Made by a program: the position numbers and the translations under genes
Virus record (IMG/VR): IMGVR_UViG_3300027628_000003
Span: 1 to 64,000 of that record
Reading direction: 5' to 3' (one strand)
Origin: a virus
Length of the DNA: 64,000 nucleotides
Shown here: positions 15,332 to 37,975 of the stretch, piece after piece
Layout of the letters: each line of letters starts with the position of its first letter
Position numbering within the stretch: the stretch's first letter is position 1
The notes under the pieces: model-generated
The model's database searches: none
Told to the model about the DNA's origin: nothing
Seen by the model: the letters and a program-made list of their open reading frames with translations, nothing else

Positions 15332-15332
15332 T

Positions 15333-16067: not shown

Positions 16068-16074
16068 AAATGGA

Positions 16075-16336: not shown

Positions 16337-16359
16337 AGAAAAAGACCCACTAGGGGTCT
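16337..16359 (-). terminator. intrinsic terminator
   Basis: AGACCC-N5-GGGTCT followed by TTTTTC. Confidence 0.55.
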
Positions 16360-27269: not shown

Positions 27270-27437
27270 GCTCACAACCTCCCTTTGCACTAAAAGAAGG
27301 GAAGAAGTCCCAAATCTTCTCCTTCCTACGAAACTGGTAGAGGATGACCCCATCGTCCTATAATCTGTCTCTTGCAGGTGAGGGTTTCCTATGGCTCGCT
27401 AGCTTTTTTCTTTACGTACTTCGTACGTAATTTAAAG

Positions 27438-27500
27438 CTTTTAAGTATTTATTTTTTAATTTAAAAAAGAGTATATTTAAAGACTCTTTTAAGTATTTAT
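27438..27500. repeat. AT-rich region with a perfect 15-bp direct repeat
   Basis: CTTTTAAGTATTTAT occurs at 27438-27452 and 27486-27500. Nearby are the inverted repeat TACGTAC-ttc-GTACGTA (about 27414-27430) and a hairpin AAAGAGT...ACTCTTT between the repeats. Confidence 0.7.
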
Positions 27501-27719
27501 ATCTTTAAGCTTTAATAAAAAATTTAAGTGCGGAGGCATCTACCACGTACAGTCAGAACGAGACCATAGACGGAGAAGAGAGAAAACATACAGTAACAAA
27601 ATGTGTACAGTTGATATTTGTAGGAGTTGAAGACACAAAAAGAAAAAGAGGAAGGAAGATGAACATACCTAACAGATGAAATCTATAAGAGAGCAGAGTT
27701 TATAATATCTTTTTAGTAA

Positions 27720-27785
27720 CGAAAGGTTGGTGGTGGGGTAATTGGTGGTGAAGAGAGTTAGTGATAACGAACGTCGATTACTATC
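27720..27785 (+). repeat. dispersed early-region repeat, copy 1 (GGTGG box)
   Basis: cgaaaGGTTGGTGGTGGGGtaaTTGGTGGTGaagagagttagtgataacgaacgtcgattact. Upstream similarity (cagtcagaac...gagaagagagaaa) extends to about 27550. Confidence 0.7.
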
Positions 27786-27901
27786 TAAGACTGCCCCAAG
27801 GCTTCAGGGGACGCTAGGCGTCCTAGTGCTGCCTCTGCTGTATCAGGTAGTGCATAAGCCCTGTCCTGCGCCACGCAAATGCTCGATATTAATAGCCCGT
27901 G

Positions 27902-28079
27902 TATATCGTATTATTCGTATATTAAGAGTATGCTGCTCCAAGGATATCGTGTTATTGTGATATAGTCCGTATATATCGTATTATTCTTATATTAAGAGTA
28001 TGTGTTTTAGTATATTGTGTTTTGTGTATATATTAAGTGTGTAATATGCGTATATCGTATTATTAGTATGTTAAAAGGG
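27902..28079. repeat. three ~30-bp direct repeats
   Basis: TATATCGTATTATTCGTATATTAAGAGTATG at 27902, TATATCGTATTATTCTTATATTAAGAGTATG at 27972, and TATATCGTATTATTAGTATGTTAAAAG at 28051. Confidence 0.75.
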
Positions 28080-28129
28080 ATTTATATAGTGAAAAGAGAA
28101 TATTAGAACATTATTATATATTTATATTA

Positions 28130-28220
28130 GCGATAAGGGTTGTGGTGGGGGAACTGGTGGTGAGGCGATACCTCGCTCTTCTTTATATGAAGCAAGTTTC
28201 TACCTAACCCCCATAGAAAC
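28130..28220 (+). repeat. dispersed early-region repeat, copy 2 (GGTGG box + palindrome)
   Basis: gcgataaGGGTTGTGGTGGGGGaaCTGGTGGTGagg ... GTTTCTA-cctaaccccca-TAGAAAC (28196-28220), about 45 bp upstream of P1. Confidence 0.7.
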
Positions 28221-28265
28221 GCCTAGGGCTAGGCGTATAGCCCCACTCTACCTACCGAAACGTCC

Positions 28266-28294
28266 TTGACTTTCAGCCCCACTCGTGGTAAAAT
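28266..28294 (+). promoter_or_regulatory. strong sigma-A-type early promoter P1
   Basis: aaaCGTCC-TTGACT, 17 nt ending TGg, then TAAAAT. Followed by the leader aagTTCAAGaggaggaGGGcac. Confidence 0.7.
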
Positions 28295-28378
28295 AAGTTC
28301 AAGAGGAGGAGGGCACTACACCAGAGAGGGTAGCACCCACCACCAACAAAATCATAAGATAAAAGGAGATTGATTAAT

Positions 28379-28780
28379 ATGGCTAAAACTAAAAAGGTAG
28401 ACGCAGTGAAATTCGTAGAGGAAAAAGGCTTCCCAGAGGTAGGACACTTTGAGGAGAAAAAAGACCTACAAAAATTCTACAAACAACTGGATGACGTAGC
28501 ACTACTAGAATGGATTGAAGTAGAAGGATTAGAGTTCAAACCTTGTGAGGATAGCGAGGCTATCAACAGAATGAGAATGTGTATGGCTATCCTATACAAA
28601 CACTTCCCTAAGGCACCAACAGCTAAGAAGAAAGCTAAGTACGCAGACTACACTATGGAACAGCTTATGCAGATGTGCTTAGACAACGATGTAGCAGTAG
28701 AGTACACTGAGAGCGAACAAATCATGCGTATGAGAACTATCATGGCTCTACGTGCAGCAGGTCATATCGAGAAAGCTTAA
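28379..28780 (+). CDS. early-cassette protein, family A (paralogue of 29942..30349 and of the C-terminus of 34988..35791)
   Basis: ATG at 28379. Carries the shared ~125-aa core PEVGHFE.KK.LQKFYKQL...W.EVEGLE(F/Y)KP...INRMR.CMAILY.HFPK...KKKAKYADYTME.LM..CLDND.AVEYT.SEQIMRMRTIMALRAAG. Lies downstream of a consensus promoter. Confidence 0.75.
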   Translation: MAKTKKVDAVKFVEEKGFPEVGHFEEKKDLQKFYKQLDDVALLEWIEVEGLEFKPCEDSEAINRMRMCMAILYKHFPKAPTAKKKAKYADYTMEQLMQMCLDNDVAVEYTESEQIMRMRTIMALRAAGHIEKA

Positions 28781-28792
28781 TGGTTGCTAGGC

Positions 28793-28810
28793 TACCCCCT
28801 ACGGGGGGTA
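28793..28810 (+). other. intercistronic stem-loop with UACG tetraloop
   Basis: TACCCCC-TACG-GGGGGTA, flanked by the conserved TTGCTAG ... CCATGGAGCT..AGCTACCTAGTTAAAAGGAGTGGT. Confidence 0.7.
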
Positions 28811-28854
28811 TCCCATGGAGCTTGTAAGCTACCTAGTTAAAAGGAGTGGTTAGT

Positions 28855-29172
28855 ATGAAGACTAAAACGTATATCCCTGAGTGGATTGTACTAGAGGAAA
28901 ACTCACCTAGTGAGATGCACTATATCCGTATGGTGGGCAGTGACGCTCGTGAGTACGATGGCACTGAGAGTATCTGGGTAATTATCTTTGACCATATCCG
29001 TGAGGATGAGTTCTGTGTATCTATCGTGGCTGTGAATGACTCGTTGGTGGGTAGCATAGTACCGTTTATGAGTACTGGAGTAGTGAGTGAGCTGAGTGCT
29101 AGAAACAACATGGAGTACCTGATGCAGTACGCTCGTAAAGGTATCGTGACTGTGGGAGGTGGTCTATTATGA
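28855..29172 (+). CDS. early-cassette protein, second cistron
   Basis: ATG at 28855 after the conserved CTAGTTAAAAGGAGTGGTTAGT. 105 aa. Confidence 0.65.
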   Translation: MKTKTYIPEWIVLEENSPSEMHYIRMVGSDAREYDGTESIWVIIFDHIREDEFCVSIVAVNDSLVGSIVPFMSTGVVSELSARNNMEYLMQYARKGIVTVGGGLL

Positions 29173-29321
29173 CTGAGTACTTCCCAGGCACTACTACCTG
29201 CGATATCTGTGATAAACCTTTCACTCAGATGTACCCTAATGACCCTGCCTATGATGCTCCTATGGACATCTGTGACGAGTGTAATGGAGGTGAGTGTATT
29301 GAAGACCGCAAGAACGATTAA
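29169..29321 (+). CDS. small C4 zinc-ribbon protein (50 aa)
   Basis: ATGA overlap with the upstream stop. Reads MTEYFPGTTTCDICDKPFTQMYPNDPAYDAPMDICDECNGGECIEDRKND (CxxC...CxxC). Below the track cutoff. Confidence 0.5.
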   Translation: MTEYFPGTTTCDICDKPFTQMYPNDPAYDAPMDICDECNGGECIEDRKND

Positions 29322-29435
29322 GCGTGTACTAGTGGTAACAGGAGCGTGTACGCTCCTTTACCTAGCTTGTAACCTAGTGTATACTGCATGCACATGGACG
29401 TATCCAGGAGTAGAAAAGCAATTAGAAGCATATCA

Positions 29436-29467
29436 AGACACCTACAGTAAGTAGGTGTCTATTTTTG
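29436..29467 (+). terminator. intrinsic terminator closing early cassette 1
   Basis: AGACACCTAC-agtaa-GTAGGTGTCT followed by ATTTTTG. Confidence 0.8.
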
Positions 29468-29691
29468 TGCGTTTGTGGGTGTAGGGCATCTTTTAGCCCG
29501 TTTTGGGGCTTTTGTGAGCGCAAAGGCTTTCGGGTTCAAAACGGTTTGAACGAGAAATTTGGGTAGGAAAATAGTAGCTCAAAAATCGTGTTTGGTGTGT
29601 TGTTCTGTGTCAGTTTTCTGCTTCAAAATCAGTCAGAACCATTTGTATATGAAAGAGAGAGAAGAGAGAAATTTGAGTATAAAAGATATAT

Positions 29692-29796
29692 GAGCGAAGG
29701 GTTGTTGTTGGGTGACTTTGGTGGTTGAAAGAGTATCTGATAAGCGAACTTCAATTGCTTTATTTGAAAGGAATTTCTAGGTAACCCCCATAGAAA
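29692..29796 (+). repeat. dispersed early-region repeat, copy 3 (GGTGG box + palindrome)
   Basis: gagcgaaGGGTTGTTGTTGGGTgacTTTGGTGGTTGaaagagtatctgataagcgaacttcaattgctttat ... TTTCTA-ggtaaccccca-TAGAAA (29774-29796), about 48 bp upstream of P2. Confidence 0.7.
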
Positions 29797-29843
29797 GCCC
29801 AACAGGGCTAGCGCTACCGTCCATCCTATATGAGTAAACGTCC

Positions 29844-29872
29844 TTGAGTATTCCACCCACCCGTGATATAAT
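29844..29872 (+). promoter_or_regulatory. strong sigma-A-type early promoter P2
   Basis: aaaCGTCC-TTGAGT, 17 nt ending TGa, then TATAAT. Leader ttaTTCAAGgggaGCGGGtcac. Confidence 0.7.
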
Positions 29873-29941
29873 TTATTCAAGGGGAGCGGGTCACACCGAC
29901 TCCTACTAGACCAGCCCACCGAGGCTTAGGAGGAATATGAT

Positions 29942-30349
29942 ATGAGTAAAAAAGAGAATATCAACGGTAAAGTAGACGCTATGGAATGGATTACTGCGAA
30001 TAATGGGTATCCTGAGGTAGGTATATTCGAGGATAAGAAATGGTTACAGAAGTTCTATAAGCAGTTACCTATCGAGGTTCTGGAGGACTGGTGTAGTGTA
30101 GAAGGATTGGAGTATAAGCCTAACGATAACGAACAGATCCATAGAATGAGAGTATGTATGGCTATCCTATACTTCCACTTCCCTAAAGAGCCTAGTACTA
30201 AGAAGAAAGCTAAATATGCAGACTATACTATGGAGGCACTTATGACACTCTGCCTAGATAATGATATAGCTGTAGAATATACAGATAGTGAGCAGATTAT
30301 GAGAATGCGTACTATTATGGCACTACGTGCAGCTGGTAAGATTCAGTAA
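29942..30349 (+). CDS. early-cassette protein, family A (paralogue of 28379..28780)
   Basis: 135 aa with RBS aggagg. About 60-70% identical by eye to 28379..28780. Lies downstream of a consensus promoter. Confidence 0.75.
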   Translation: MSKKENINGKVDAMEWITANNGYPEVGIFEDKKWLQKFYKQLPIEVLEDWCSVEGLEYKPNDNEQIHRMRVCMAILYFHFPKEPSTKKKAKYADYTMEALMTLCLDNDIAVEYTDSEQIMRMRTIMALRAAGKIQ

Positions 30350-30357
30350 GTTGCTAG

Positions 30358-30379
30358 TACTCCCTCTACGGAGGGGGTA
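30358..30379 (+). other. intercistronic stem-loop with UACG tetraloop
   Basis: TACTCCCTC-TACG-GAGGGGGTA with the same flanks. Confidence 0.7.
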
Positions 30380-30421
30380 TCATGGAACCTATTGGTTACC
30401 TAGACTAAAGGAGTGGTAAGT

Positions 30422-30697
30422 ATGTATGATGTAGTTAGTGAGTTAATACCTATGAGTGAGTCTGATATGGAGTGGGTACGTGAGCACCTGCGTGAGGTAG
30501 AGCCTAGTATACACAACGCTAGGTATTGGCGAGTAGTATACTGGTCTAATGAGAACGGTAGTGCTACTGAGATTCAGCCTATGGGTGTGAATATAGACGA
30601 GGACGTAGAGGGCTTCGGTGTAGGTGATTTAAATGGTGTAGCCTACTGGAGTAAGTACCTGCGTGAGCGTGGCTTCCCTAGATATATGTTTGAGTGA
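30422..30697 (+). CDS. early-cassette protein, second cistron
   Basis: ATG at 30422 after the conserved CTAGACTAAAGGAGTGGTAAGT. 91 aa. A strong terminator follows. Confidence 0.65.
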   Translation: MYDVVSELIPMSESDMEWVREHLREVEPSIHNARYWRVVYWSNENGSATEIQPMGVNIDEDVEGFGVGDLNGVAYWSKYLRERGFPRYMFE

Positions 30698-30703
30698 GTG
30701 TGT

Positions 30704-30735
30704 AACCCTAGTACTGTGTGTACTAGGGTTTTTCT
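30704..30735 (+). terminator. intrinsic terminator closing early cassette 2
   Basis: AACCCTAGTA-N7-TACTAGGGTT followed by TTTCT. Confidence 0.8.
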
Positions 30736-30858
30736 ATGTCCTTTTCTGCTCCTATGTGAGTTGTATAGCAACTCTGTAAGTCGATTTCTCTCAAAGGTGA
30801 AAGGGTTCAAAGATTGAAGCAGGAGAAATTCGAGTAAGTGAGTGGTAGAATGTTAAAT

Positions 30859-30960
30859 AGGCGAAAGGTTGGTGGGGGGATTGAATGGTGGGAAGAGTTT
30901 CTGATGAGCGAACCGAATTGCTTTATAGGAAGTGAGTTTGTAGGTACTCCTCATAGAAAC
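30859..30960 (+). repeat. dispersed early-region repeat, copy 4 (orphan, no promoter follows)
   Basis: aggcgaaaGGTTGGTGGGGGGattgaATGGTGGGaagagtttctgatgagcgaaccgaattgctttat ... GTTTGTA-ggtactcctca-TAGAAAC (30936-30960). Confidence 0.65.
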
Positions 30961-30967
30961 GAGCATA

Positions 30968-30999
30968 AGAAAACCCTATATACGTTTGTGTATATAGGG
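30968..30999 (-). terminator. intrinsic terminator closing the leftward early genes (convergent with 30704-30735)
   Basis: CCCTATATAC-N6-GTATATAGGG followed by TTTTCTT on the minus strand. Confidence 0.7.
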
Positions 31000-31011
31000 T
31001 GTATATGGGTA

Positions 31012-31230
31012 CTAGAAGCCTGCTGGTTCTACATCTAGGTCTAGTACATCTCGTATCATATTGAATACATCTGCCCCTAGTAAGTTCTCATGTAGCCTAC
31101 TAGCTATAAGTTGTATATCATCCTCGTTAACCTCAGGTACGTCTATACCCTGCTCCTTACTATTCTGTATCTCTTCCCTTACCTTCTGTCTTAGCCATGC
31201 CACAGCCATTTCATCTGTAATAGTATTCAT
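31012..31230 (-). CDS. hypothetical early protein (probable paralogue of 31230..31460)
   Basis: 72 aa. Shares the W-L-R-x-(K/E)-V-R and D-(D/E)-D-I pattern with its neighbour. A terminator follows. Confidence 0.55.
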   Translation of the reverse strand: MNTITDEMAVAWLRQKVREEIQNSKEQGIDVPEVNEDDIQLIASRLHENLLGADVFNMIRDVLDLDVEPAGF

Positions 31231-31460
31231 TATAGTAAGTCCTCCTCTATCTCGAATCTACTAGCTATATCAATAGTAATCTGTTCATTAACCCCAGTTA
31301 GGAAGTTTTGTACTAGGCATTCAATATCCTCATCATCCCAATGTATAGGTGGGTTACCCTTCTTTATCCGGTATGCACTAATAGCACTAAGGTTACTACG
31401 AACCTCTCCTCGTAGCCATTCTAGTACCTCTGGGCTAGGGGCATTATATAAGTCTATCAT
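31230..31460 (-). CDS. hypothetical early protein
   Basis: 76 aa with RBS aaaaggagagagttaat. Confidence 0.55.
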   Translation of the reverse strand: MIDLYNAPSPEVLEWLRGEVRSNLSAISAYRIKKGNPPIHWDDEDIECLVQNFLTGVNEQITIDIASRFEIEEDLL

Positions 31461-31502
31461 ATTAACTCTCTCCTTTTATCTGTGAGTATAGGTATTCCAT
31501 GA

Positions 31503-31524
31503 GTAGCCCTGCGTACAAGGCTAC
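31503..31524 (-). other. intercistronic stem-loop with UACG tetraloop
   Basis: Minus strand reads GTAGCCTTG-TACG-CAGGGCTAC, preceded by TTGCTAG. Confidence 0.6.
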
Positions 31525-31534
31525 CTAGCAATCC

Positions 31535-31831
31535 CTATTTGTGAGTAGTGCACCCTATGAATGCCTTAGTAGGCAGGTAGTAGGTGAACTGTGGACTATC
31601 AGTATAGTTATAGCGAATCCATACACTATCTCTTTCGTTAGTGAATGCTATATCAGTGAATAGTTGTTGGAACTGCTCCGGTACCTCTCTGTATCTAGAG
31701 ATACCCTGTACAAATACCTCACCTTCTTCTAGTACATGTAACCCATAAGCAAAGGTAGGGTGCATATTCCACAGACTACCTGGGCTTACCTCTATAGTGA
31801 TGTGTGCATCTGCGTTACCTAATTCGTGCAT
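31535..31831 (-). CDS. hypothetical early protein
   Basis: Start placed at the ATG at 31831 (aagggagaggttaat-ATG). The track start at 31867 sits in the loop of an 8-bp intercistronic hairpin. Confidence 0.55.
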   Translation of the reverse strand: MHELGNADAHITIEVSPGSLWNMHPTFAYGLHVLEEGEVFVQGISRYREVPEQFQQLFTDIAFTNERDSVWIRYNYTDSPQFTYYLPTKAFIGCTTHK

Positions 31832-31857
31832 ATTAACCTCTCCCTTATATGTAAGTA

Positions 31858-31876
31858 CTAGGGGCATAGCCCCTAG
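31858..31876 (-). other. intercistronic stem-loop
   Basis: CTAGGGGC-ATA-GCCCCTAG, 8 bp. Confidence 0.55.
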
Positions 31877-31877
31877 C

Positions 31878-32270
31878 TTAGTACTCGCTGAAGTAGTATA
31901 CGTGTACCTCTACTCCATTAGCTAGAGTAACGTCATACTCCCCTGTATCTATACAGATACAATCTTGTAGCCCACTACAGCACTCTATACCTTCGTCTAC
32001 GTGCTTCCTATTTACACAACCTGACATAGAGTTACCAGCTATGTTACCTTCTGCGCTATGGTCTAGACCCTTAGCATAATGGTGTAGGTAGTGCACTGTA
32101 GCTAGCATATCATCCTCAGGTAGGTTATTAATATTGAATACGTAGTACTCTCTGTCATACTGTATACGTATAGGCTCCTCCTTAATACCGTGGTGGTCTT
32201 GGTTGGTACTGTATACTGCCTCATCTATTAAGCCCATAGGCATTGTGTCTGAACCGTACATAATTATCAT
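31878..32270 (-). CDS. hypothetical early protein (Cys/His-rich)
   Basis: 130 aa with RBS aggaggagatagta. First cistron behind the promoter at 32320-32348. Confidence 0.6.
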   Translation of the reverse strand: MIIMYGSDTMPMGLIDEAVYSTNQDHHGIKEEPIRIQYDREYYVFNINNLPEDDMLATVHYLHHYAKGLDHSAEGNIAGNSMSGCVNRKHVDEGIECCSGLQDCICIDTGEYDVTLANGVEVHVYYFSEY

Positions 32271-32319
32271 TACTATCTCCTCCTAATCTCTAGTAGAAGC
32301 ACCCCTGCTCCTTGAAGAA

Positions 32320-32348
32320 ATTATACCACGGAGCAGGGAAAATCCCAA
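32320..32348 (-). promoter_or_regulatory. strong sigma-A-type early promoter P3
   Basis: Minus strand reads gaaCGTCC-TTGGGA, 17 nt ending TGg, then TATAAT. Leader ttcTTCAAGgaGCaGGGgtgc. Confidence 0.65.
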
Positions 32349-32368
32349 GGACGTTCCCTACTGCTAGG

Positions 32369-32767
32369 CTATCTAGGATTTCTCACATAAGGGTTATCTA
32401 TAAACAATAGGTAGATATCCTTATCATTCTGCTTACGTATGATAGCTCTATTATCCTCTCCCATACGCTCTACCTTATTAACCTCCCACACACTATACTC
32501 TTCATATAGGCGCTTACCAGAGATATCCTTACCCTGCCATACATCCTCTTGTAGCATAGCTCCTGTAGGTATCACTACGTTTATAAGGTCTTCTACCCAG
32601 TCGTCTGGATACTCTTCAGGTAGGGCTAATAGGTTAAAGCGTTCCCCATCCTCTACAAACTTAGTTAGACCTGCACCTATAGCACGCTTTACAAACTCTG
32701 CTACCTCTGTAGCTGTAGCACGCTCACTATATAGGTAGGCTACTGGTGTCATTTTCTTACTTAACAT
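32369..32767 (-). CDS. hypothetical early protein
   Basis: ATG at 32767 after the conserved CTAGATAAAAGGAGTGGTATAT. Confidence 0.6.
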   Translation of the reverse strand: MLSKKMTPVAYLYSERATATEVAEFVKRAIGAGLTKFVEDGERFNLLALPEEYPDDWVEDLINVVIPTGAMLQEDVWQGKDISGKRLYEEYSVWEVNKVERMGEDNRAIIRKQNDKDIYLLFIDNPYVRNPR

Positions 32768-32814
32768 ATATACCACTCCTTTTATCTAGGTAGCTATGGT
32801 TAGCTCCATAATAC

Positions 32815-32830
32815 CTGCTCCTTAGAGCAG
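32815..32830 (-). other. intercistronic stem-loop (UAAG loop)
   Basis: Minus strand reads CTGCTC-TAAG-GAGCAG with the same conserved flanks. Confidence 0.6.
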
Positions 32831-32841
32831 ATACTAGCAAC

Positions 32842-33147
32842 CTACCATTGGCTAATATGATGTGCAAACTCATGTACTGGGAAGTAGTCTAGTGCACCCT
32901 CCTCATAGCTATCATATGCATATACTACCCACTGCCATGTATCCACTACGCTAGGGTCTTCCTCGAACTCACGATACACATCTAGGTCTACACAGCTAGG
33001 TACTTCTTCTGTAGGGATAATAGCTGACACCTTAACTAGACCGTTCTCTATTCCTAGATACTCCTCACTAGGGTGTATGTAATAGCTACGTCCTACCTCA
33101 ATAGTTCTCTCTACCTGTACTGTAATAGCATTTATCTTAATACCCAT
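32842..33147 (-). CDS. hypothetical early protein (paralogue of 33223..33549)
   Basis: ATG at 33147 after the conserved CTAGATAAAAGGAGTGGTACAA. Shares IHPSE.Y.GIE.G...V with its neighbour. Confidence 0.6.
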   Translation of the reverse strand: MGIKINAITVQVERTIEVGRSYYIHPSEEYLGIENGLVKVSAIIPTEEVPSCVDLDVYREFEEDPSVVDTWQWVVYAYDSYEEGALDYFPVHEFAHHISQW

Positions 33148-33196
33148 TTGTACCACTCCTTTTATCTAGGTAGCTCATACTAAGCTCCATAGTACC

Positions 33197-33210
33197 TGCC
33201 CCGTAGGGCA
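33197..33210 (-). other. intercistronic stem-loop with UACG tetraloop
   Basis: Minus strand reads TGCCC-TACG-GGGCA with the same conserved flanks. Confidence 0.6.
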
Positions 33211-33222
33211 AGCACTAGCATA

Positions 33223-33549
33223 TTAGTATGTTGTAGTGTGGTCTAGGAACTCCTCTAGCTCTAGCACCTGTACCTCACCGTTATCATATTTGTATACTAC
33301 GAATGTATAGTTCTCTACTGGTTCAATATCTAGTAGCAGTTCCTGTAGCATACCATAGTGGTTATACGCTAACTCTGTGGACTCTGTAGTTAGCTCTCCT
33401 ACCTTACCTGCTTCTAGCACTCGGATAGCACCAGACTCGATACCTTGATACGCTTCACTAGGGTGGATATTCATACGGTGCCCTACAGATACAGTACCTG
33501 TAAGCGTATACGTTACTCCAGTTTTATTCGGTTGTGTAGTATTAATCAT
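33223..33549 (-). CDS. hypothetical early protein (paralogue of 32842..33147)
   Basis: 108 aa with RBS aggaggaatatatt. First cistron behind the promoter at 33609-33637. Confidence 0.6.
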   Translation of the reverse strand: MINTTQPNKTGVTYTLTGTVSVGHRMNIHPSEAYQGIESGAIRVLEAGKVGELTTESTELAYNHYGMLQELLLDIEPVENYTFVVYKYDNGEVQVLELEEFLDHTTTY

Positions 33550-33608
33550 AATATATTCCTCCTATGTGGTTGTAGTCGGTTGCTGGTGTTCCCCGCCCCC
33601 GTAACAAA

Positions 33609-33637
33609 ATTATCGCACGGAGGGGAGAAAATCTCAA
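33609..33637 (-). promoter_or_regulatory. strong sigma-A-type early promoter P4
   Basis: Minus strand reads caaCGTCC-TTGAGA, 17 nt ending TGc, then GATAAT. Leader ...acggggGCGGGgaac. Confidence 0.65.
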
Positions 33638-33680
33638 GGACGTTGCCTACTGGTAGCCTAGTTACGGGCTGACCCTATAG

Positions 33681-33730
33681 CGTGGGAGTGTTTTATTTGA
33701 AGCGATTTTCTACCTACCCTCCATAGAGAC
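33681..33730 (+). repeat. partial copy of the early-region repeat (palindrome part) inside the minus-strand gene block
   Basis: ttttatttgaagcgaTTTTCTAcctaccctccaTAGAGAC, in the same (plus) orientation as copies 1-4. Confidence 0.55.
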
Positions 33731-33738
33731 GTCTAGGC

Positions 33739-33762
33739 ATAAAAATAGCCCCTATTAGGGGC
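33739..33762 (-). terminator. probable terminator
   Basis: GCCCC-taata-GGGGC followed by TATTTTTAT. Confidence 0.5.
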
Positions 33763-33766
33763 GGTA

Positions 33767-34108
33767 TTAGTCTAGGTTATAGGTACCAGGTCTACAGAAG
33801 TAGTACCATGCTTCATAGTAATAGGATAGGCTATCATGGGTACGAGTCATTAGACCTAAGCCTTTATAGTGAGTTAGGTAGAACTCTACCCATGCCGTAT
33901 GGTAGTGCTCTAGGCACTGTTGTAGGAGTTTAGCACTATCCTTAGTTAGCATACCCTGTACATTAAACTCATCTACAATATTGTTAAGTTCCTCTAGGGG
34001 TATGGGGCAGCTACCCTCTTCACGCTTAACCTCTGCTATACGCTCCCATACAAAGTCTAATACCCAACGCATTACTTCTTCTCTAGTATACATCTCTTTT
34101 TTAGCCAT
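33767..34108 (-). CDS. hypothetical early protein
   Basis: 113 aa with RBS aagggagcggatatag. Confidence 0.6.
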   Translation of the reverse strand: MAKKEMYTREEVMRWVLDFVWERIAEVKREEGSCPIPLEELNNIVDEFNVQGMLTKDSAKLLQQCLEHYHTAWVEFYLTHYKGLGLMTRTHDSLSYYYEAWYYFCRPGTYNLD

Positions 34109-34128
34109 CTATATCCGCTCCCTTAGTA

Positions 34129-34332
34129 TTAATATTCACTGCTATGCTTATAGCCATTACCACGCTGTAGAACAGTGTAGGCACTCTTATCATAAGGGTT
34201 ACTCCCTGTATACCTAGCTAATGCGTAATCAGTGAGTGCCATACGTCTCATAAACCGTCTCATAGCTGACATAGACTCATAGGTCTTATGTCCCTCTATT
34301 TCATCTTGTGAGTACTCTATATTAAGAGGCAT
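34129..34332 (-). CDS. hypothetical early protein
   Basis: 67 aa, 1-nt overlap with the upstream gene. Confidence 0.5.
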   Translation of the reverse strand: MPLNIEYSQDEIEGHKTYESMSAMRRFMRRMALTDYALARYTGSNPYDKSAYTVLQRGNGYKHSSEY

Positions 34333-34643
34333 TAGTTACTCACCACCAGTACATGGTAGAATGTAACGTCTATATAACGTTCTCTAGATACTGACACTGT
34401 GATACCGTGTGTGATAATATCCTGCTCATGAGTGAGTGGTAGGTCATCTAAGGCAGGTATCTCATTCATATGATCAGCATGTGCCCACATAGTAGTAGCA
34501 TGCTCATCTGATATTGAAGCAGGTGCTAGGTACATATCACCCTCTATATTATGCCACTCTGCTTCCTGTATAGTTAGCCTTAGGGCTATTTCTTCCATTA
34601 CCTCAGCAGGTATAAGTGTGTTATTAACAAGTACCTTAGTCAT
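34332..34643 (-). CDS. hypothetical early protein
   Basis: Start moved to the ATG at 34643 (ggggtgcgtaat-ATG, just after the upstream TAA). Confidence 0.55.
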   Translation of the reverse strand: MTKVLVNNTLIPAEVMEEIALRLTIQEAEWHNIEGDMYLAPASISDEHATTMWAHADHMNEIPALDDLPLTHEQDIITHGITVSVSRERYIDVTFYHVLVVSN

Positions 34644-34644
34644 A

Positions 34645-34911
34645 TTACGCACCCCACTTTATGATATGTTTGATAGTACCTGTAGTCTGATTATCTATCT
34701 CAGCTGCATAAACTCCAGTACCAAAGTCTAAGCCTTGGTCTACCTGCTCCTTAACAGTGCTCCAGCCTGTAGCAGTCTTGGTAACCTTATTCCACACCCC
34801 ATCGAAAGTATTAGGGCACTTAGGGTCATCACTATCTACTAGTCTACCCTCTTTATCTACAATCACACTATCACCATCAGTGAATAGTATACAGTAATCT
34901 TGGCTATACAT
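34645..34911 (-). CDS. hypothetical early protein
   Basis: ATG at 34911 after the conserved CTAGATAAAAGGAGTGGTTAAT. Confidence 0.6.
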   Translation of the reverse strand: MYSQDYCILFTDGDSVIVDKEGRLVDSDDPKCPNTFDGVWNKVTKTATGWSTVKEQVDQGLDFGTGVYAAEIDNQTTGTIKHIIKWGA

Positions 34912-34956
34912 ATTAACCACTCCTTTTATCTAGGTAACATACAATGTTCCAGTGCT

Positions 34957-34976
34957 ATAGCCCCCGTAGGGGCTAT
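34957..34976 (-). other. intercistronic stem-loop with UACG tetraloop
   Basis: Minus strand reads ATAGCCCC-TACG-GGGGCTAT with the same conserved flanks. Confidence 0.7.
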
Positions 34977-34987
34977 GCTAGCAACAC

Positions 34988-35791
34988 CTATGCTAATAGT
35001 CCTGCTTCACGTAAAGCCATGATAGTGTACATGCGTAGGATATTTTCGTTATCCCCTTTAGGCTCTCTTACCTCTACATCATTCTCAATAGCCATTGCTA
35101 GTAAGTCCTCTGTAGATAGGTGACCATATTTAGCTTTCTTCTTACCACTAGTCTTCTTAGGGAAGTGGTGGTTACTGATAGCCATGCATGCTCTCATACG
35201 ATTGATACCAGGGTTATCATTAGGCTTCCACTCTAAGCCCTCTATCTCAGCCCACTCACTAATCTGCTCCATAGATAGGCGTTTGTAGAACTTCTTAATA
35301 TCGTCGATAGATTCGAAGTGTCCTACTTCAGGGTACTCAATCTCCTGACCTGCTAGGTCTTCCTTAACCTTAGGAGCTTTAGCCTTAGGCTCTGGCTGTT
35401 TTAGTTTCTTAGCCATAGCTCTCCAGTCAGCTACCTCTTCTTTAGGCTCTTCTTCTACAGGAGCAGGTACTTCCTCTTCAGTATGTACCTCTTCCTCTAC
35501 AGGCTCTTCAATAGGCTCCTCTTCTAGAGCTAATTCCTCCTGCTCTTCCTCTACTACTTCTAGCTTACCGCTCTCTGGAGCGTCTCCTACCATTACTACT
35601 TCTATCTTACCTTCTTCTACTGCTGCTTCTACTAGAGTGTCGTTACCTGCTTCTTCTACTACATCCTCGATAACCTCTACGCCTTCGTACTCACCAGCTA
35701 AGATACCTTTCTTAGTAACTTTTACTCCTAAGATTGCTCCTACTTCCTTAACTGTTGCTACTGTTTCCTCACCGTTTACTAGATATGCCAT
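34988..35791 (-). CDS. early-cassette protein, family A with extra N-terminal domain and poly-acidic linker
   Basis: Start moved to the ATG at 35791 (aaaggagacgataatt-ATG). The C-terminal ~120 aa match 28379..28780 and 29942..30349. The middle is EEEQEELALEEEPIEEPVEEEVHTEEEVPAPVEEEPKEE. Confidence 0.7.
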   Translation of the reverse strand: MAYLVNGEETVATVKEVGAILGVKVTKKGILAGEYEGVEVIEDVVEEAGNDTLVEAAVEEGKIEVVMVGDAPESGKLEVVEEEQEELALEEEPIEEPVEEEVHTEEEVPAPVEEEPKEEVADWRAMAKKLKQPEPKAKAPKVKEDLAGQEIEYPEVGHFESIDDIKKFYKRLSMEQISEWAEIEGLEWKPNDNPGINRMRACMAISNHHFPKKTSGKKKAKYGHLSTEDLLAMAIENDVEVREPKGDNENILRMYTIMALREAGLLA

Positions 35792-35867
35792 AATTATCGT
35801 CTCCTTTATTCTCGAATATTTGTTGAGTGGGACTCCTCTGTGAGGAGTGCCCCGCTCGCTTGAACCA

Positions 35868-35896
35868 ATTATTGCATGGTGAGGTGAGGAAGTCAA
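35868..35896 (-). promoter_or_regulatory. strong sigma-A-type early promoter P5
   Basis: Minus strand reads aaaCGTCC-TTGACT, 17 nt ending TGc, then AATAAT. Leader tggTTCAAGcgaGCGGGGcac. Confidence 0.65.
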
Positions 35897-36035
35897 GGAC
35901 GTTTTGTTACTCTAGCCTACTCTACTTGCTGTCCCTATAAGCTTTTGATGTGCTACCAATGTAACCTACCTAGGACACAAAGAAAAAATAAAAAAGGAAG
36001 AGATGCGGTTTCGCTATCTCTTCCCTAGTTCTTTT

Positions 36036-36076
36036 CCCTTATTGGAAACGATTTTCTACCTAACCCTCATAGAAAC
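36036..36076 (+). repeat. partial copy of the early-region repeat (palindrome part)
   Basis: cttattggaaacgaTTTTCTAcctaaccctcaTAGAAAC, in plus orientation. It abuts the stop of 36078..36332. Confidence 0.55.
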
Positions 36077-36077
36077 C

Positions 36078-36332
36078 CTACTCGTGGGGGTTATGAGGTG
36101 GGGCTACCATGTCTCTAAGGTCAATATAATGTTCTACCTCTGTAGCAGTAGTACCTTCCCCTGTACCAGTCTGTACACACAGAGGACATACAGGATTCTC
36201 TGCCTTATAGTGGGATAGGAACATACCATGTAGGTCACATGGGTGGAGTTTCATACCCTTTGGTAGATACCTTACTACACCTTCCATACCAATCTGGTTA
36301 ATAGACTTCTGTATATCATTAACTGCACTCAT
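36078..36332 (-). CDS. hypothetical protein (Cys-rich)
   Basis: 84 aa with RBS aaggagggataacg. Contains a HPCDLHG...CPLC pattern. Confidence 0.55.
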   Translation of the reverse strand: MSAVNDIQKSINQIGMEGVVRYLPKGMKLHPCDLHGMFLSHYKAENPVCPLCVQTGTGEGTTATEVEHYIDLRDMVAPPHNPHE

Positions 36333-36359
36333 CGTTATCCCTCCTTAATATACTAACAG

Positions 36360-36402
36360 AAATAAAAATAGAGTATGGCTTGTCATTCTTGTACCATACT
36401 CT
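36360..36402 (-). terminator. intrinsic terminator
   Basis: AGAGTATGG-N15-CCATACTCT followed by ATTTTTATTT. Confidence 0.65.
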
Positions 36403-36409
36403 AGTCATA

Positions 36410-36580
36410 CTACTTATATAGATCCATATCCATCTTCTTACCTAGTGGTTGAGGTCTGTCTATCTTAGGGAATATGTCGCCTCTACGTACAGTAGCTACT
36501 ACCTTATCTCCCTGTTTTAGCTGTACCATTTCGTCATCTTTATCATTACCTTCATAGTTCATATACTCTTCATTAGTCAT
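36410..36580 (-). CDS. small ORF (56 aa)
   Basis: AAGGAGGTACTCACAG-ATG. Reads MTNEEYMNYEGNDKDDEMVQLKQGDKVVATVRRGDIFPKIDRPQPLGKKMDMDLYK. A 9-bp terminator hairpin follows. Below the track cutoff. Confidence 0.5.
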   Translation of the reverse strand: MTNEEYMNYEGNDKDDEMVQLKQGDKVVATVRRGDIFPKIDRPQPLGKKMDMDLYK

Positions 36581-36594
36581 CTGTGAGTACCTCC

Positions 36595-37308
36595 TTAGAA
36601 TTGGCTATCTGATACTACTATTGTATCCTTGTCATCTCCATACTGTTCATCTACAGTCTTCTCATATTCCTCTAGCAGTTCTGGTGCATAGTTCTCATAG
36701 TAGCTACGCTCTGCATCTAGTATTGCCTGCTCTAGTTCAGAGTGTTTATCCTCTGGTAAGTATTTCATAACCACTTCTATAATAGCCTGGAACTTAGCTT
36801 GCTCTACTGCTCTCAGCTGGTCTAGACCGTAGCTAGTGAGTGCCCCATGATTACCACCAGTTAATTTATGCTTTAGCTCTATAGCCTTCATAGCATCTTG
36901 TAGTTTAACTGTGGGAGAAGTATATAAACTGTTCATACCGATCTGTATGATACCGTCTAGTACTTCTAGCTCACTCTTAACCATGTGCTTGGTGTTTTGC
37001 AGTGCTATGGTATTAAGTACTATGGGTTTACGCTTTGGCATCCCTATACCGAGCATACGCTCGACTGTAATCTGTTTTGTGATAGCTTCCTGTAGCATCT
37101 CTTTATATTCATATAGCTTTGGGTGAGATATGTTGAAGCCACGTTCCTTACACCAGTCGGATACCTTATGAGGAGATACCCCTGTAAGCAGCATCTCATT
37201 AACCTCTTCCCCATGTTCCCACTTAACTAGTCGCTCTAGCTTATGGTGTCTAGTCTCTAGCATTTCTGTGGATAGCTCTTCAATAGTTAGCTTCTTTCTA
37301 TTCGTCAT
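36595..37308 (-). CDS. hypothetical protein with probable N-terminal helix-turn-helix
   Basis: 237 aa. ...LLTGVSPHKVSDWCKERGFNISHPKLYEY... looks HTH-like. No further assignment. Confidence 0.6.
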   Translation of the reverse strand: MTNRKKLTIEELSTEMLETRHHKLERLVKWEHGEEVNEMLLTGVSPHKVSDWCKERGFNISHPKLYEYKEMLQEAITKQITVERMLGIGMPKRKPIVLNTIALQNTKHMVKSELEVLDGIIQIGMNSLYTSPTVKLQDAMKAIELKHKLTGGNHGALTSYGLDQLRAVEQAKFQAIIEVVMKYLPEDKHSELEQAILDAERSYYENYAPELLEEYEKTVDEQYGDDKDTIVVSDSQF

Positions 37309-37658: not shown

Positions 37659-37975
37659 ATCTTGGCTGTGTGTAGGTAGGAATTTGTAAGATAAGAGAAG
37701 TGAGTTGAAGTAGAAAAATTAGGTATAGTGCGCCTATAGGGGGCGGTACAGGTCACCCAAACGGGTGTTTGTGTACTGTATCCCCAGTCATTCATACTAC
37801 TGCTCTTCCCATACCTTAATAGAACTGGGTTCCTATAAATCCTCCCCTATTTCTATGTTCATGTGTCTGTGAGTGAGTATCCTGCTACTCTCAGTAACTC
37901 TTCCTATGCTTTTGTGCATAGTTTCCCACCCACACTATCCTGTCCCAAGTGTCAACTAGGGTACGCTACAGGTAT

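What the first reader, a model, noticed from the sequence alone, without database searches (positions are those of the whole stretch)
27360..36400. The only plus-strand genes in 64 kb sit in a cassette-built, paralogue-rich early block resembling a host-takeover or terminal-redundancy module
About 20 small genes are packed between 27.4 and 36.4 kb. They form mono- to penta-cistronic units, each with its own consensus promoter and terminator.

Two plus-strand cassettes (28379-29321 and 29942-30697) converge on leftward units at a back-to-back terminator pair (30704-30735 and 30968-30999).

Several gene families are duplicated:
- Family A occurs three times: 28379..28780, 29942..30349, and the C-terminus of 34988..35791. 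The last copy adds a new N-domain and a 40-residue poly-Glu/Pro linker.
- 32842..33147 and 33223..33549 form a pair (IHPSE.Y.GIE.G).
- 31012..31230 and 31230..31460 form a pair.

In SPO1 the equivalent architecture is the host-takeover module inside the terminal redundancy, next to the packaging genes. Here the large terminase lies 2.3 kb to the left. None of the proteins has a motif I can assign, so the block is a candidate reservoir of novel host-shutoff or anti-defence factors.
Basis: partly seen in the sequence, partly recalled or inferred. Interest (0 to 1): 0.7.

Follow-up and report, generated by a model that had tools for sequence, protein, structure and literature searches.

The report
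SPO1-type host-takeover module, CP-51-like phage

Summary
The window comes from a Siminovitchvirus, 88-91% identical in DNA to Bacillus phages CP-51, JL and Shanette.

**What the block is.** The 28.2-35.9 kb block is syntenic with the SPO1 terminal redundancy:
- gp36.1, gp36.2 and gp36.3 homologues lie on one side.
- A full-architecture gp44 (E3) orthologue heads the leftward genes.
- Two gp51 homologues sit on the opposite strand.
- A gp0.12 homologue lies just outside.

"Family A" is therefore the known gp44/gp51 family, Pfam PF26856 Phage_SPO1_gp51. GenBank records of JL and Shanette annotate a 16.3-16.5 kb terminal repeat that covers the whole block.

**Observation check.** Most claims hold:
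- These are the only plus-strand genes in the window.
- The convergent terminators are present.
- Family A occurs three times.
- The 32842/33223 pair is real.

The 31012/31230 pair is not supported.

**New details.**
- There are five operons, each with a promoter carrying the extended -35 motif AACGTCCTTGA.
- A ~74-nt structured intercistronic RNA element occurs six times. It shows covariation, is also present in the SPO1 and SP82 early operons, and is absent from Rfam. It probably corresponds to the SP82 RNase III processing sites.
- Breaks in DNA similarity to the related phages fall at these elements.
- The gp51 domain is predicted to fold as a tandem internal repeat.

Thirteen of the 18 genes in the finding have no SPO1 homologue.

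Novelty: new member of a known kind. Interest is low to moderate.

The parts
36078..37658 (-). Left-arm leader genes, homologues of SPO1 gp36.1 (37305-37658), gp36.2 (36595-37308) and gp36.3 (36078-36332), plus a 56-aa ORF (36410-36580). In SPO1 these lie inside the terminal repeat but are not counted as part of the host-takeover module.
   Evidence: BLASTP against SPO1 proteins gives E 8e-16, 3e-103 and 5e-8. Terminator-like hairpins followed by T-runs can be read directly after 36410 and after 36078.
35868..35903 (-). Early-type promoter P1: AACGTCCTTGACT, a 17-nt spacer, then TGcAATAAT. It heads a five-gene operon.
34988..35791 (-). gp44 (E3) orthologue of 267 aa. It has a Xis-like N-terminal domain, an acidic Glu/Pro/Val linker, a Lys-rich insert, and a C-terminal Phage_SPO1_gp51 domain (Family A copy 3).
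   Evidence: BLASTP to gp44 and gp51. Match to PDB 6L6V, E 4.4e-4. Global alignment and composition. phrog_12391 'transcriptional regulator', E 4e-104. PF26856.
34912..34987 (-). Intercistronic structured RNA element, ICE copy 1.
33767..34911 (-). Four small genes completing operon 1: 34645-34911, 34332-34643, 34129-34332 and 33767-34108. PHROGs matched them only to unannotated families that scored near-full-length matches. BLASTP found no SPO1 homologue.
33748..33762 (-). Intrinsic terminator of operon 1.
33609..33644 (-). Early-type promoter P2.
32842..33549 (-). Paralogue pair 33223-33549 and 32842-33147, separated by ICE copy 2 (33148-33222). The predicted fold is a small SH3/Tudor-like beta-barrel.
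   Evidence: The family has 131 representatives. AF2 pLDDT 91.9. Only weak Foldseek hits.
32369..32841 (-). ICE copy 3 (32768-32841) followed by gene 32369-32767. The gene is labelled 'DNA topoisomerase' in JL and Shanette, and that label has no support.
32320..32355 (-). Early-type promoter P3 (AACGTCCTTGG). No terminator lies upstream of it.
31012..32261 (-). Operon 3: 31878-32261, 31535-31867, ICE copy 4 (31461-31534), 31230-31460 and 31012-31230.
30973..31000 (-). Terminator of the leftward arm.
30704..30730 (+). Terminator of the rightward arm. It converges on the terminator at 30973-31000.
29837..30697 (+). Operon 5: promoter P5 (29837-29872), gp51 homologue 29942-30349 (Family A copy 2), ICE copy 6 (30350-30421) and gene 30422-30697.
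28259..29460 (+). Operon 4: promoter P4 (28259-28294), gp51 homologue 28379-28780 (Family A copy 1), ICE copy 5 (28781-28854), genes 28855-29172 and 29169-29321, and terminator 29436-29460.
28197..28218 (-). One of five copies of the motif TTCTATGRGGGTTAGGTAGAAA. The others are at 29774-29795, 33707-33728 and 36053-36074, plus a degenerate copy near 30.94 kb. All lie on the minus strand, 40-150 nt upstream of the early promoters.
27354..28258 (.). A 0.9-kb non-coding spacer between the gp0.12 homologue and operon 4. It holds direct repeats of 31-41 nt and occupies the position where the SPO1 terminal repeat ends.
37754..37767 (.). Small hairpin at the site that corresponds to base 1 of the JL and Shanette records, the annotated left end of their terminal repeat.

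Best explanation

**How it most likely works.**
1. Inferred: after injection, host sigma-A RNA polymerase reads five strong promoters. Each has a near-consensus -35, an extended TG -10, and the shared upstream motif AACGTCCTTGA. They drive two convergent arms of 2- to 5-gene operons.
2. Shown: within the operons a ~74-nt structured element precedes a strong Shine-Dalgarno sequence (AAAGGAGTGGT).
3. Inferred from the SP82 precedent: host RNase III cuts the polycistronic RNA at this element. The ribosome-bound SD then protects each new 5' end, giving high, independent expression of every cassette.
4. Inferred by homology, not tested: the gp44 orthologue has a DNA-binding N-domain, an acidic DNA-mimic linker and a gp51-type C-domain. 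Together with the two stand-alone gp51-type proteins it acts on host RNA polymerase to shut off host and early transcription, as described for SPO1 gp44/50/51.
5. Inferred: the other 13 small proteins, which have no SPO1 homologue, are host-specific takeover or anti-defence factors of unknown target.
6. Inferred from similarity breakpoints: the conserved promoters, structured elements and terminators also serve as homology linkers where gene cassettes are duplicated, lost or replaced.
For: **Identity of the phage**
- The block DNA is 88.8-90.7% identical to JL, Shanette and CP-51.
- The large terminase is 99% identical to that of CP-51 and 77% identical to SPO1 gp2.11.

**Homology and synteny with the SPO1 terminal repeat**
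- Homologues of gp36.1, gp36.2 and gp36.3, gp44, two copies of gp51, then gp0.12 and gp1.9, occur in the SPO1 order and with the same strand pattern.
- The Exiguobacterium phage vB_EalM-132 shows the same frame.

**Family A**
- tblastn hits the SPO1 e3, gp50/51 loci.
- The N-domain matches PDB 6L6V.
- All three gp44 regions align.
- There are 301 homologues carrying PF26856 Phage_SPO1_gp51.

**Published functions in SPO1**
- Gp44 inhibits RNA polymerase (PMC8208478).
- Genes 44, 50 and 51 act in shutoff, and the module consists of small, highly expressed early genes (PMC6873191; PMC10531801).

**Promoters and terminators**
-.

**Structured intercistronic element**
- Six copies score 77-101 bits against the covariance model.
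- 95% of cells are paired, against 72% in shuffles. There are 109 double-change cells, against 28 in shuffles.
- Homologous copies lie between SPO1 genes 60/59, 59/58, 58/57, 57/56 and 45/46, and at the same places in SP82G.
- SP82 early RNAs are known Bs-RNase III targets with internal loops (PMC1935012; PMC4838370).
- The SP82 RBS stabilises its mRNA (PMC7509114).

**Terminal repeat**
- JL and Shanette carry repeat_region annotations.
- CP-51 has fixed ends (PMC4113786).
- Long direct terminal repeats of 'up to 16 kbp' are reported by the lab that deposited the JL and Shanette records (PMC5000459).

**Cassette junctions**
- Similarity to JL, Shanette and CP-51 breaks at 34909, 33166, 33220, 31457 and 30424. 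These are ends of the structured element or the adjoining start or stop codons.
- Further breaks at 31006 and 30729 coincide with the terminators.
Against: - No expression, toxicity or read-coverage data exist for this phage. 'Early', 'host takeover' and 'terminal repeat' all rest on homology, promoter consensus and the annotation of relatives.
- Only 5 of the 18 genes in the finding have SPO1 homologues by BLASTP. None of SPO1 genes 37-43, 45-49 or 52-60 is detectably present.
- The annotated JL/Shanette repeat (16.3 kb) runs past the terminase to about window 21,285. The SPO1 repeat stops right after gene 60. The right boundary is therefore uncertain, and the annotation may be imprecise.
- The link between the structured element and the mapped SP82 RNase III sites is inferred. 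The original papers were not available.
- Hairpin 1 of the element is only 10-12 bp long.
- The published NMR work calls the gp44 C-terminal region unstructured. That sits uneasily with a discrete binding domain.
Confidence: 0.8

Rival explanations
1. The block is an early host-takeover gene cluster homologous to that of SPO1, but in this phage it is not, or only partly, inside the terminal repeat. The repeat annotations of JL and Shanette would then be imprecise or not transferable.
For: - The annotated right boundary (JL 16,292, about window 21,285) falls inside the start of an annotated gene (JL gp34). It places the terminase and the next large gene in the repeat, unlike SPO1.
- Nothing in the window sequence itself marks a repeat.
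- The metagenome contigs of this phage are single collapsed 138.9-kb contigs.
Against: - Two independent records (JL and Shanette) start within 4 nt of each other, at a hairpin at window 37754-37767.
- The gp36.x to gp44 to gp51 frame lies in the terminal repeat in SPO1.
- The terminase belongs to the SPO1 long-repeat clade.
Confidence: 0.15
2. The 74-nt intercistronic elements are not RNase III processing sites. They act mainly as translational or structural elements (insulating each ribosome-binding site, or blocking 3'-exonucleases), or mainly as DNA-level recombination linkers like the PeSL cassettes of T4-type phages.
For: - Similarity to the related phages breaks at the ends of the elements.
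- Hairpin 1 is a 10-12 bp stem capped by a UACG/UAAG tetraloop. That is short for an RNase III substrate.
- Two mutually exclusive helices both show covariation, which suggests a switch.
- No cleavage data exist.
Against: - Strong base-pair covariation shows selection at the RNA level, not only at the DNA level.
- Homologous elements sit in the SP82 and SPO1 early operons, where RNase III cleavage of early mRNA is documented.
- The extended form of the stem contains an internal loop, as described for the SP82 substrates.
Confidence: 0.3
3. The plus-strand cassettes are a recent inversion or a horizontally acquired island, and not an ancestral part of the module.
For: - GC skew flips sign only here.
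- The two plus-strand operons are a segmental duplication, 69-73% identical in DNA and including promoter, gene and structured element.
Against: - SPO1, SP82G and the Exiguobacterium phage all have the gp51-bearing arm on the strand opposite to gp44, converging on it.
- JL, Shanette and CP-51 share the arrangement.
- A GC-skew flip is what a change of coding strand produces.
Confidence: 0.03

Closest known systems
[quoted passage not shown] 1998, 2009; cited in PMC6873191 and PMC10531801)
   Same: - The genomic position and flanking genes match: gp36.1-36.3 on one side and gp0.12 on the other.
- Both have two convergent arms of short operons of small genes.
- A gp44 orthologue with all three regions sits in the arm co-oriented with gp36.x, and gp51 homologue(s) sit in the opposite arm.
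- Both have strong sigma-A-type promoters and strong ribosome-binding sites.
- The same intercistronic structured element is present.
   Different: - BLASTP detects no homologues of SPO1 genes 37-43, 45-49 or 52-60. Thirteen genes here have no SPO1 counterpart.
- There are two gp51 copies instead of one.
- The promoters carry a motif specific to this phage group, AACGTCCTTGA, which is absent from SPO1 and SP82G.
- Only three genes separate the module from the terminase, against about 20 in SPO1.
- The repeat annotated in the relatives is longer (16.3 kb) and includes the terminase.
Bacillus phages CP-51, JL and Shanette (genus Siminovitchvirus), the equivalent regions in GenBank
   Same: The blocks are collinear at 88-91% DNA identity. 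The promoters, structured elements, 22-nt motif and Family A genes are the same.
   Different: - Cassette content differs. JL and CP-51 carry only one member of the 32842/33223 pair.
- CP-51 lacks 34645-34911 and has two extra genes near 27.6 kb.
- Several coding sequences are replaced exactly between start and stop codons.
- Those records annotate almost every gene here as a hypothetical protein.
Bs-RNase III processing sites and the 5' stabiliser of phage SP82 early mRNA (Panganiban and Whiteley 1983; Mitra and Bechhofer 1994; Hue et al. 1995; known to me, and cited in PMC4838370, PMC1935012 and PMC7509114)
   Same: - A conserved stem-loop with an internal loop lies in the intercistronic regions of early operons, directly upstream of a strong polypurine ribosome-binding site.
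- The covariance model built from this window finds six sites in SP82G and six in SPO1.
   Different: - I could not confirm from the original papers that the model hits are the mapped cleavage sites.
- No cleavage data exist for B. cereus phages.
T5 pre-early (first-step-transfer) genes in the long terminal repeat, and PeSL promoter-stem-loop cassettes of T4-type phages (from my own knowledge)
   Same: These resemble the block in function only. Host-shutoff genes sit in a long terminal repeat that enters the cell first, and repeated regulatory sequences flank small early genes and mediate modular shuffling.
   Different: There is no sequence or protein homology, and the phage families are different. 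Nothing was tested here.

Membership tests
[quoted passage not shown] | Flanked by gp36.1/36.2/36.3 homologues on one side and a gp0.12 homologue on the other | tested here: met
   BLASTP E-values are 8e-16, 3e-103 and 5e-8 for the gp36.x homologues and 2e-15 for gp0.12, in the SPO1 order.
[quoted passage not shown] | Contains a gp44 (E3) orthologue with an N-terminal DNA-binding domain, an acidic middle region and a C-terminal region | tested here: met
   Match to PDB 6L6V, E 4.4e-4. Residues 75-125 are 43% Glu and the C-domain is 56% identical to gp44.
[quoted passage not shown] | gp51 homologue(s) in an oppositely oriented arm that converges on the gp44 arm | tested here: met
   Two copies about 57% identical to gp51. 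Convergent terminators at 30704-31000.
[quoted passage not shown] | Many small genes in short operons with strong sigma-A-type early promoters and strong ribosome-binding sites | tested here: met
   Five promoters match 10 of 12 consensus positions with an extended TG -10, and AAAGGAG-type ribosome-binding sites are present. This is a consensus match only and activity was not measured.
[quoted passage not shown] | Homologues of the other characterised module genes (38-40, 46, 49, 53, 56 and so on) | tested here: not met
   No BLASTP hit at E <= 0.1. No Pfam or NCBIfam hits. More distant homology was not excluded.
[quoted passage not shown] | Lies inside the direct terminal repeat of the virion DNA | not testable with these tools
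   No reads are available. Indirect support comes from the repeat_region annotations of JL (1..16292) and Shanette (1..16480), which cover the block.
[quoted passage not shown] | Transcribed early, with products that shut off host synthesis or are toxic | not testable with these tools
   This needs experiments.
Pfam PF26856 Phage_SPO1_gp51 (Family A) | Match to the family model | tested here: met
   Precomputed PF26856 hits exist on all listed homologues and on all three genes of this phage's metagenome contigs. The local Pfam copy lacks the model. phrog_9647 and phrog_12391 hit at E 2.5e-71 and 3.9e-104.
SP82/SPO1 Bs-RNase III processing sites | Conserved intercistronic stem-loop with an internal loop, homologous to elements in the SP82 and SPO1 early operons | tested here: met
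   Covariance-model hits in SPO1 and SP82G at 27-45 bits. Covariation supports the structure.
SP82/SPO1 Bs-RNase III processing sites | Cleaved by Bacillus RNase III at a defined site, and identical with the mapped SP82 sites | not testable with these tools
DNA topoisomerase (label on JL gp12 and Shanette gp12, equivalent to 32369-32767) | Any topoisomerase domain | tested here: not met
   No Pfam or NCBIfam match. Only two homologues, at least 93% identical, were found among 5.8 billion proteins.

The most novel reading that the evidence does not exclude
The ~74-nt intercistronic element is an undescribed (not in Rfam) two-state RNA family shared by SPO1/SP82-like and CP-51-like phages.
- One conformation would be the RNase III substrate. 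The other would be a pair of hairpins that exposes or insulates the downstream ribosome-binding site.
- The same element would be the recombination junction that lets these phages duplicate and swap host-takeover cassettes.

In addition, the gp51-type domain would be a folded tandem helix-extended-helix module, and the true RNA polymerase or DNA docking unit of gp44. That contradicts the published view that the gp44 C-terminus is unstructured.
Probability: 0.3. Interest if true: 0.5.

Novelty: new member of a known kind. Interest (0 to 1): 0.3.

Why it matters
- It extends the SPO1 host-takeover model to phages of the B. cereus/anthracis group. The conserved core turns out to be small (gp36.x, gp44, gp51, plus the regulatory grammar), while 13 of 18 genes are replaced by proteins with no SPO1 homologue.
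- Those proteins are reasonable candidates for B. cereus-group-specific growth inhibitors, but that is a screening lead and not a discovery.
- Three by-products could be useful to specialists:
  1. A covariance model for the early-operon RNA element, which is absent from Rfam.
  2. Evidence that gene cassettes are exchanged at these elements.
  3. A confident fold prediction with an internal repeat for the gp51 domain, which conflicts with a published 'unstructured' assignment.

Tried and rejected
**Searches that gave nothing useful**
- Pfam and NCBIfam on about 20 block proteins returned no significant hits. The local Pfam copy lacks PF26856.
- Rfam on 27-39 kb at E <= 1 returned nothing.
- Foldseek of the gp51-domain model against the PDB found no match at E < 1. 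The LEM, SAP and Rho-N-like hits are too weak to use. The viral library returned only family members.
- Foldseek of the 32842 model found only weak Tudor/chromo-barrel-like hits, best E 0.025. I take this as a fold class at most, not a function.
- Homologue searches for 32369-32767 and 32842-33147 found 2 proteins and 1 protein.

**Claims tested and rejected**
- The 31012/31230 paralogy was tested by BLASTP and a shuffle test and rejected.
- Similarity among the three genes that follow Family A (28846, 30413, 34645) is at chance level. Their shared 'MVSM/MVNM' starts are an artefact of a GTG inside the conserved ribosome-binding site.

**Uninformative or unavailable**
- The SPO1 middle and late promoter consensus sequences, recalled from memory, gave 2 and 0 hits, both outside the block.
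- The two JL repeat boundaries showed no convincing shared motif.
- The papers that could have settled the RNase III and terminal-repeat questions were not held. These include Stewart 1998 and 2009, Sampath and Stewart 2004, and Hue 1995.
- Searches for the SP82 RNase III site papers and for the CP-51 genome paper did not return them.

Full report
**Source of the window**

The 9.6-kb region matches only three Bacillus cereus-group myoviruses in the phage collection:
- Shanette and JL at 88.8% identity over 85% of the query.
- CP-51 at 90.7% identity over 71% of the query.

All three belong to Herelleviridae, Spounavirinae, genus Siminovitchvirus. The ORF at 23403-25079 is the large terminase. 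It is 99.1% identical to that of CP-51 and 76.6% identical to SPO1 gp2.11. The same phage is present on two metagenome contigs of about 138.9 kb. The window's minus strand corresponds to the plus strand of the JL, Shanette and SPO1 records.

**Checking the observation**

Eighteen ORFs of 50-267 aa fill 28.3-36.4 kb.

They include the only credible plus-strand genes in the window:
- Every plus-strand ORF of at least 90 aa outside 28.3-30.7 kb is mostly or wholly inside a longer minus-strand ORF, or overlaps a tRNA.
- The three tRNAs are on the minus strand.
- GC skew is positive only at 27-32 kb.

The back-to-back terminators are real: +30704-30730 and -31000-30973.

The paralogue claims gave mixed results:
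- Family A is real. The two short copies are 70% identical (E 7e-57). Each is 51-54% identical to residues about 137-267 of the 267-aa protein.
- The 32842/33223 pair is real: 29% identity, E 2.6e-8, and 0 of 3000 shuffles reach its score.
- The 31012/31230 pair is not supported: BLASTP E 0.67, and 530 of 3000 shuffles score at least as high.

The statement that every unit has its own promoter and terminator is only partly right. There are five operons of 2-5 genes and none is monocistronic. One operon runs straight into the next promoter without a terminator.

**What the block is**

BLASTP against the proteins of the first 26 kb of SPO1 gives a collinear set of matches:

| Window ORF | SPO1 match | Note |
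|---|---|---|
| 37305-37658 | gp36.1 | |
| 36595-37308 | gp36.2 | 61% identity |
| 36078-36332 | gp36.3 | |
| 34988-35791 | gp44 and gp51 | |
| 28379-28780 and 29942-30349 | gp51 | about 57% identity |
| 26139-27353 | gp0.12 | annotated in SPO1 as just outside the terminal redundancy |
| 25110-25529 | gp1.9 | |

SPO1 has the same two-armed layout. Genes 36.1-49 run rightward and genes 50-60 run leftward, converging near 8.8-8.96 kb. The Exiguobacterium phage vB_EalM-132 shows the same frame.

In SPO1 this region is the 13,185-bp terminal redundancy. Most of it is the host-takeover module of small, highly expressed early genes (PMC10531801; PMC6873191).

**Family A**

tblastn with the long copy hits the SPO1 'e3 protein' record and the gp50/gp51 locus.

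The long protein shares all three regions of gp44:
- Its N-terminus matches the solved gp44(1-55) domain, PDB 6L6V, at E 4.4e-4.
- Its middle is 43% Glu over residues 75-125, against 46% Glu in gp44 residues 56-122.
- Its C-terminal about 115 residues align throughout. There is one extra Lys-rich insert.

The short copies correspond to gp51, which is essentially the C-domain alone. The family has 301 homologues at E < 1e-3, all carrying Pfam PF26856 'Phage_SPO1_gp51'. That model is newer than the local Pfam copy, which explains the empty Pfam scan.

Published work gives the following functions:
- Gp44 inhibits RNA polymerase through a Xis-like DNA-binding N-domain and an acidic DNA-mimic region that contacts the beta and beta' subunits.
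- Its C-terminal region is needed for full activity but is called unstructured on 1D-NMR evidence (PMC8208478).
- Genes 44, 50 and 51 together control the shutoff of host and early synthesis.

Two results add to this:
- AlphaFold2 with a 63-sequence alignment predicts a confident six-helix fold for the gp51-type protein: mean pLDDT 89.9, pTM 0.61.
- A profile-profile comparison of its two halves shows an internal tandem repeat. Residues 34-71 align with residues 88-124 at probability 96% and E 3.9e-9, with the shared pattern Y..L..E.L...G....D.E.I.RMR..MA.

No solved structure resembles the model. A high pLDDT does not prove that the free protein is folded, so the conflict with the NMR statement needs an experiment.

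**The other genes**

Thirteen of the 18 genes have no SPO1 homologue by BLASTP. They have no Pfam or NCBIfam match. They fall in PHROG families without any functional annotation, apart from the label discussed next.

- The 'DNA topoisomerase' label that JL, Shanette and phrog_23927 give to 32369-32767 has no domain support. That protein has only two homologues, both at least 93% identical.
- The 32842/33223 family is wider than it first looked. A full profile search finds 131 cluster representatives of about 95-135 aa.
- AlphaFold2 gives a confident small beta-barrel for that family (pLDDT 91.9). Foldseek hits to Tudor/chromo-barrel domains are weak, with best E 0.025. This is a fold class and not a function.

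**Regulatory anatomy**

1. *Promoters.* The five best sigma-A-type matches in 25-39.5 kb head the five operons. They share an 11-nt extension of the -35 box, AACGTCCTTGA(C/G), then a 17-nt spacer and TGnTAtAAT.
   - This motif occurs five times in the block at 0-1 mismatch. A sixth exact copy at 48,729, with a plausible -10, is the only other promoter-like copy in the window.
   - It is conserved in JL, Shanette and CP-51 and absent from SPO1, SP82G and the Exiguobacterium phage.
2. *Intercistronic element.* A ~74-nt element occurs six times: 34912-34987, 33148-33222, 32768-32841 and 31461-31534 on the minus strand, and 28781-28854 and 30350-30421 on the plus strand.
   - Its layout is stop codon, GTTGCTAG, a 10-12 bp hairpin with a UACG/UAAG loop, AUGGAGCY, a second short hairpin, ACCUAG, AUAAAAGGAGUGGU, then ATG.
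   - RNAalifold on the plain MAFFT alignment finds compensatory changes in 11 of 16 pairs.
   - A covariance model finds the six copies at 77-101 bits and the orthologous copies in the relatives.
   - At 27-45 bits it also finds elements between SPO1 genes 60/59, 59/58, 58/57, 57/56 and 45/46 and upstream of gene 44, with the same six in SP82G.
   - On 31 distinct sequences 95% of cells pair, against 72% in shuffles and 33-54% when partners are slid. There are 109 double-change cells against 28 in shuffles.
   - The middle strand GGAGCY can instead pair with the upstream GGUUGC, extending hairpin 1 into a longer stem with an internal loop. That helix also shows covariation: 91.6% paired, and 3 of 5 pairs with double changes.
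   - Rfam has no matching family.
   - SP82 early RNAs are documented Bs-RNase III substrates 'with internal loop sequences', cut once on the downstream side (PMC1935012; PMC4838370).
   - The SP82 ribosome-binding site stabilises its mRNA (PMC7509114).
   - I infer that the element is this processing site plus the 5' stabiliser. I could not check the mapped sites in the original papers.
3. *A 22-nt motif.* TTCTATGRGGGTTAGGTAGAAA occurs four times at 3 or fewer mismatches, against 0.01 expected. A fifth, degenerate copy lies near 30.94 kb.
   - All copies are on the minus strand, whatever the direction of the neighbouring promoter.
   - The motif is conserved in the three relatives and absent from SPO1.
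   - I have no explanation for the fixed orientation.

**Cassette construction**

- The two plus-strand operons are a segmental duplication that includes the upstream region, promoter, leader, gp51 gene and the structured element. DNA identity is 69-73%.
- When the window is aligned to JL, Shanette and CP-51, similarity breaks at 34909, 33166, 33220, 31457 and 30424. These are the ends of the structured elements or the adjoining start or stop codons.
- Further breaks fall at 31006 and 30729, which are the terminators.
- Whole coding sequences, such as 33223-33549 and 31878-32261, are replaced exactly between conserved flanks.
- JL and CP-51 carry only one member of the 32842/33223 pair.
- The conserved regulatory elements therefore delimit exchangeable gene cassettes. 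'Cassette-built' is a fair description.

**Terminal redundancy**

This cannot be tested from the sequence alone.

Indirect support:
- Their first bases map to window 37758 and 37754, inside a small hairpin.
- CP-51 has fixed ends (PMC4113786).
- The lab that deposited JL and Shanette describes exact direct repeats 'up to 16 kbp', recognised by doubled coverage (PMC5000459).

Caveat:
- That repeat would end near window 21,285 and so include the terminase.
- The SPO1 repeat ends right after gene 60, which is equivalent to the 0.9-kb repeat-rich spacer at 27,354-28,258.
- Either way the block lies inside the repeat.

**Verdict**

- The thing itself is the known SPO1-type host-takeover module in a phage group whose GenBank records leave almost all of it as hypothetical proteins.
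- It is a new member of a known kind.
- The most useful by-products are the RNA element, the cassette junctions, the predicted fold and repeat of the gp51 domain, and a list of 13 genes without SPO1 homologues for toxicity screening.

Noticed in passing
window 34912-34987, 33148-33222, 32768-32841, 31461-31534 (-); 28781-28854, 30350-30421 (+); weaker copy 43042-43135 (-): A ~74-nt structured intercistronic RNA element with strong covariation. It is shared with the SPO1 and SP82G early operons and absent from Rfam. Its middle strand can form either of two mutually exclusive helices, and both show covariation.
   Followed up: yes
window 28197-28218, 29774-29795, 33707-33728, 36053-36074 (all minus strand), plus a degenerate copy near 30.94 kb: The 22-nt motif TTCTATGRGGGTTAGGTAGAAA lies 40-150 nt upstream of the early promoters. 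It always has the same absolute orientation, whatever the direction of transcription. It is conserved in JL, Shanette and CP-51 and absent from SPO1. Its function is unexplained.
   Followed up: partly
window 48694-48729 (-): A sixth exact copy of the extended early-promoter motif (AACGTCCTTGA ... TGAGAAAAT) lies 13 kb outside the block. It suggests another early unit elsewhere in the genome.
   Followed up: no
window 27354-28258: A 0.9-kb non-coding spacer sits at the position where the SPO1 terminal repeat ends. It holds direct repeats of 31-41 nt in 3-4 copies (27892-28081), AT-rich repeats (27411-27505), and a GGTTGTGGTGGGG..TGGTGGTGA motif that also occurs at 28135 and 29697.
   Followed up: partly
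window 37659-38617: A 959-nt non-coding, partly GC-rich region spans the site equivalent to the JL and Shanette genome end. A hairpin, CACCCAAACGGGTG, lies at 37754-37767, exactly at base 1 of those records. AGCGGAR occurs four times within 37975-38034.
   Followed up: partly
window 21060-21527: A C-rich intergenic gap contains the point equivalent to the annotated right end of the JL terminal repeat (about 21,285). That end lies beyond the terminase, unlike in SPO1.
   Followed up: partly
window 32369-32767 (-): The orthologues in JL and Shanette, and phrog_23927, are labelled 'DNA topoisomerase'. No Pfam or NCBIfam domain supports this, and only two near-identical homologues exist. The label looks spurious.
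   Followed up: yes
window 28379-28780 (+) and paralogues: The gp51-type domain is confidently predicted as a six-helix fold made of an internal tandem repeat (hhalign probability 96%). This conflicts with the published description of the gp44 C-terminus as unstructured.
   Followed up: yes
window 4869-5788 (-): A cluster of three tRNA genes. The ARAGORN call at 5323-5397 is odd ('tRNA-???', two-base anticodon 'ac').
   Followed up: no
window 38618-39553 (-): A 311-aa protein with a Laminin_G_3 domain (precomputed Pfam hit on the metagenome contig) is the last gene before the putative genome end. It corresponds to JL gp219.
   Followed up: no
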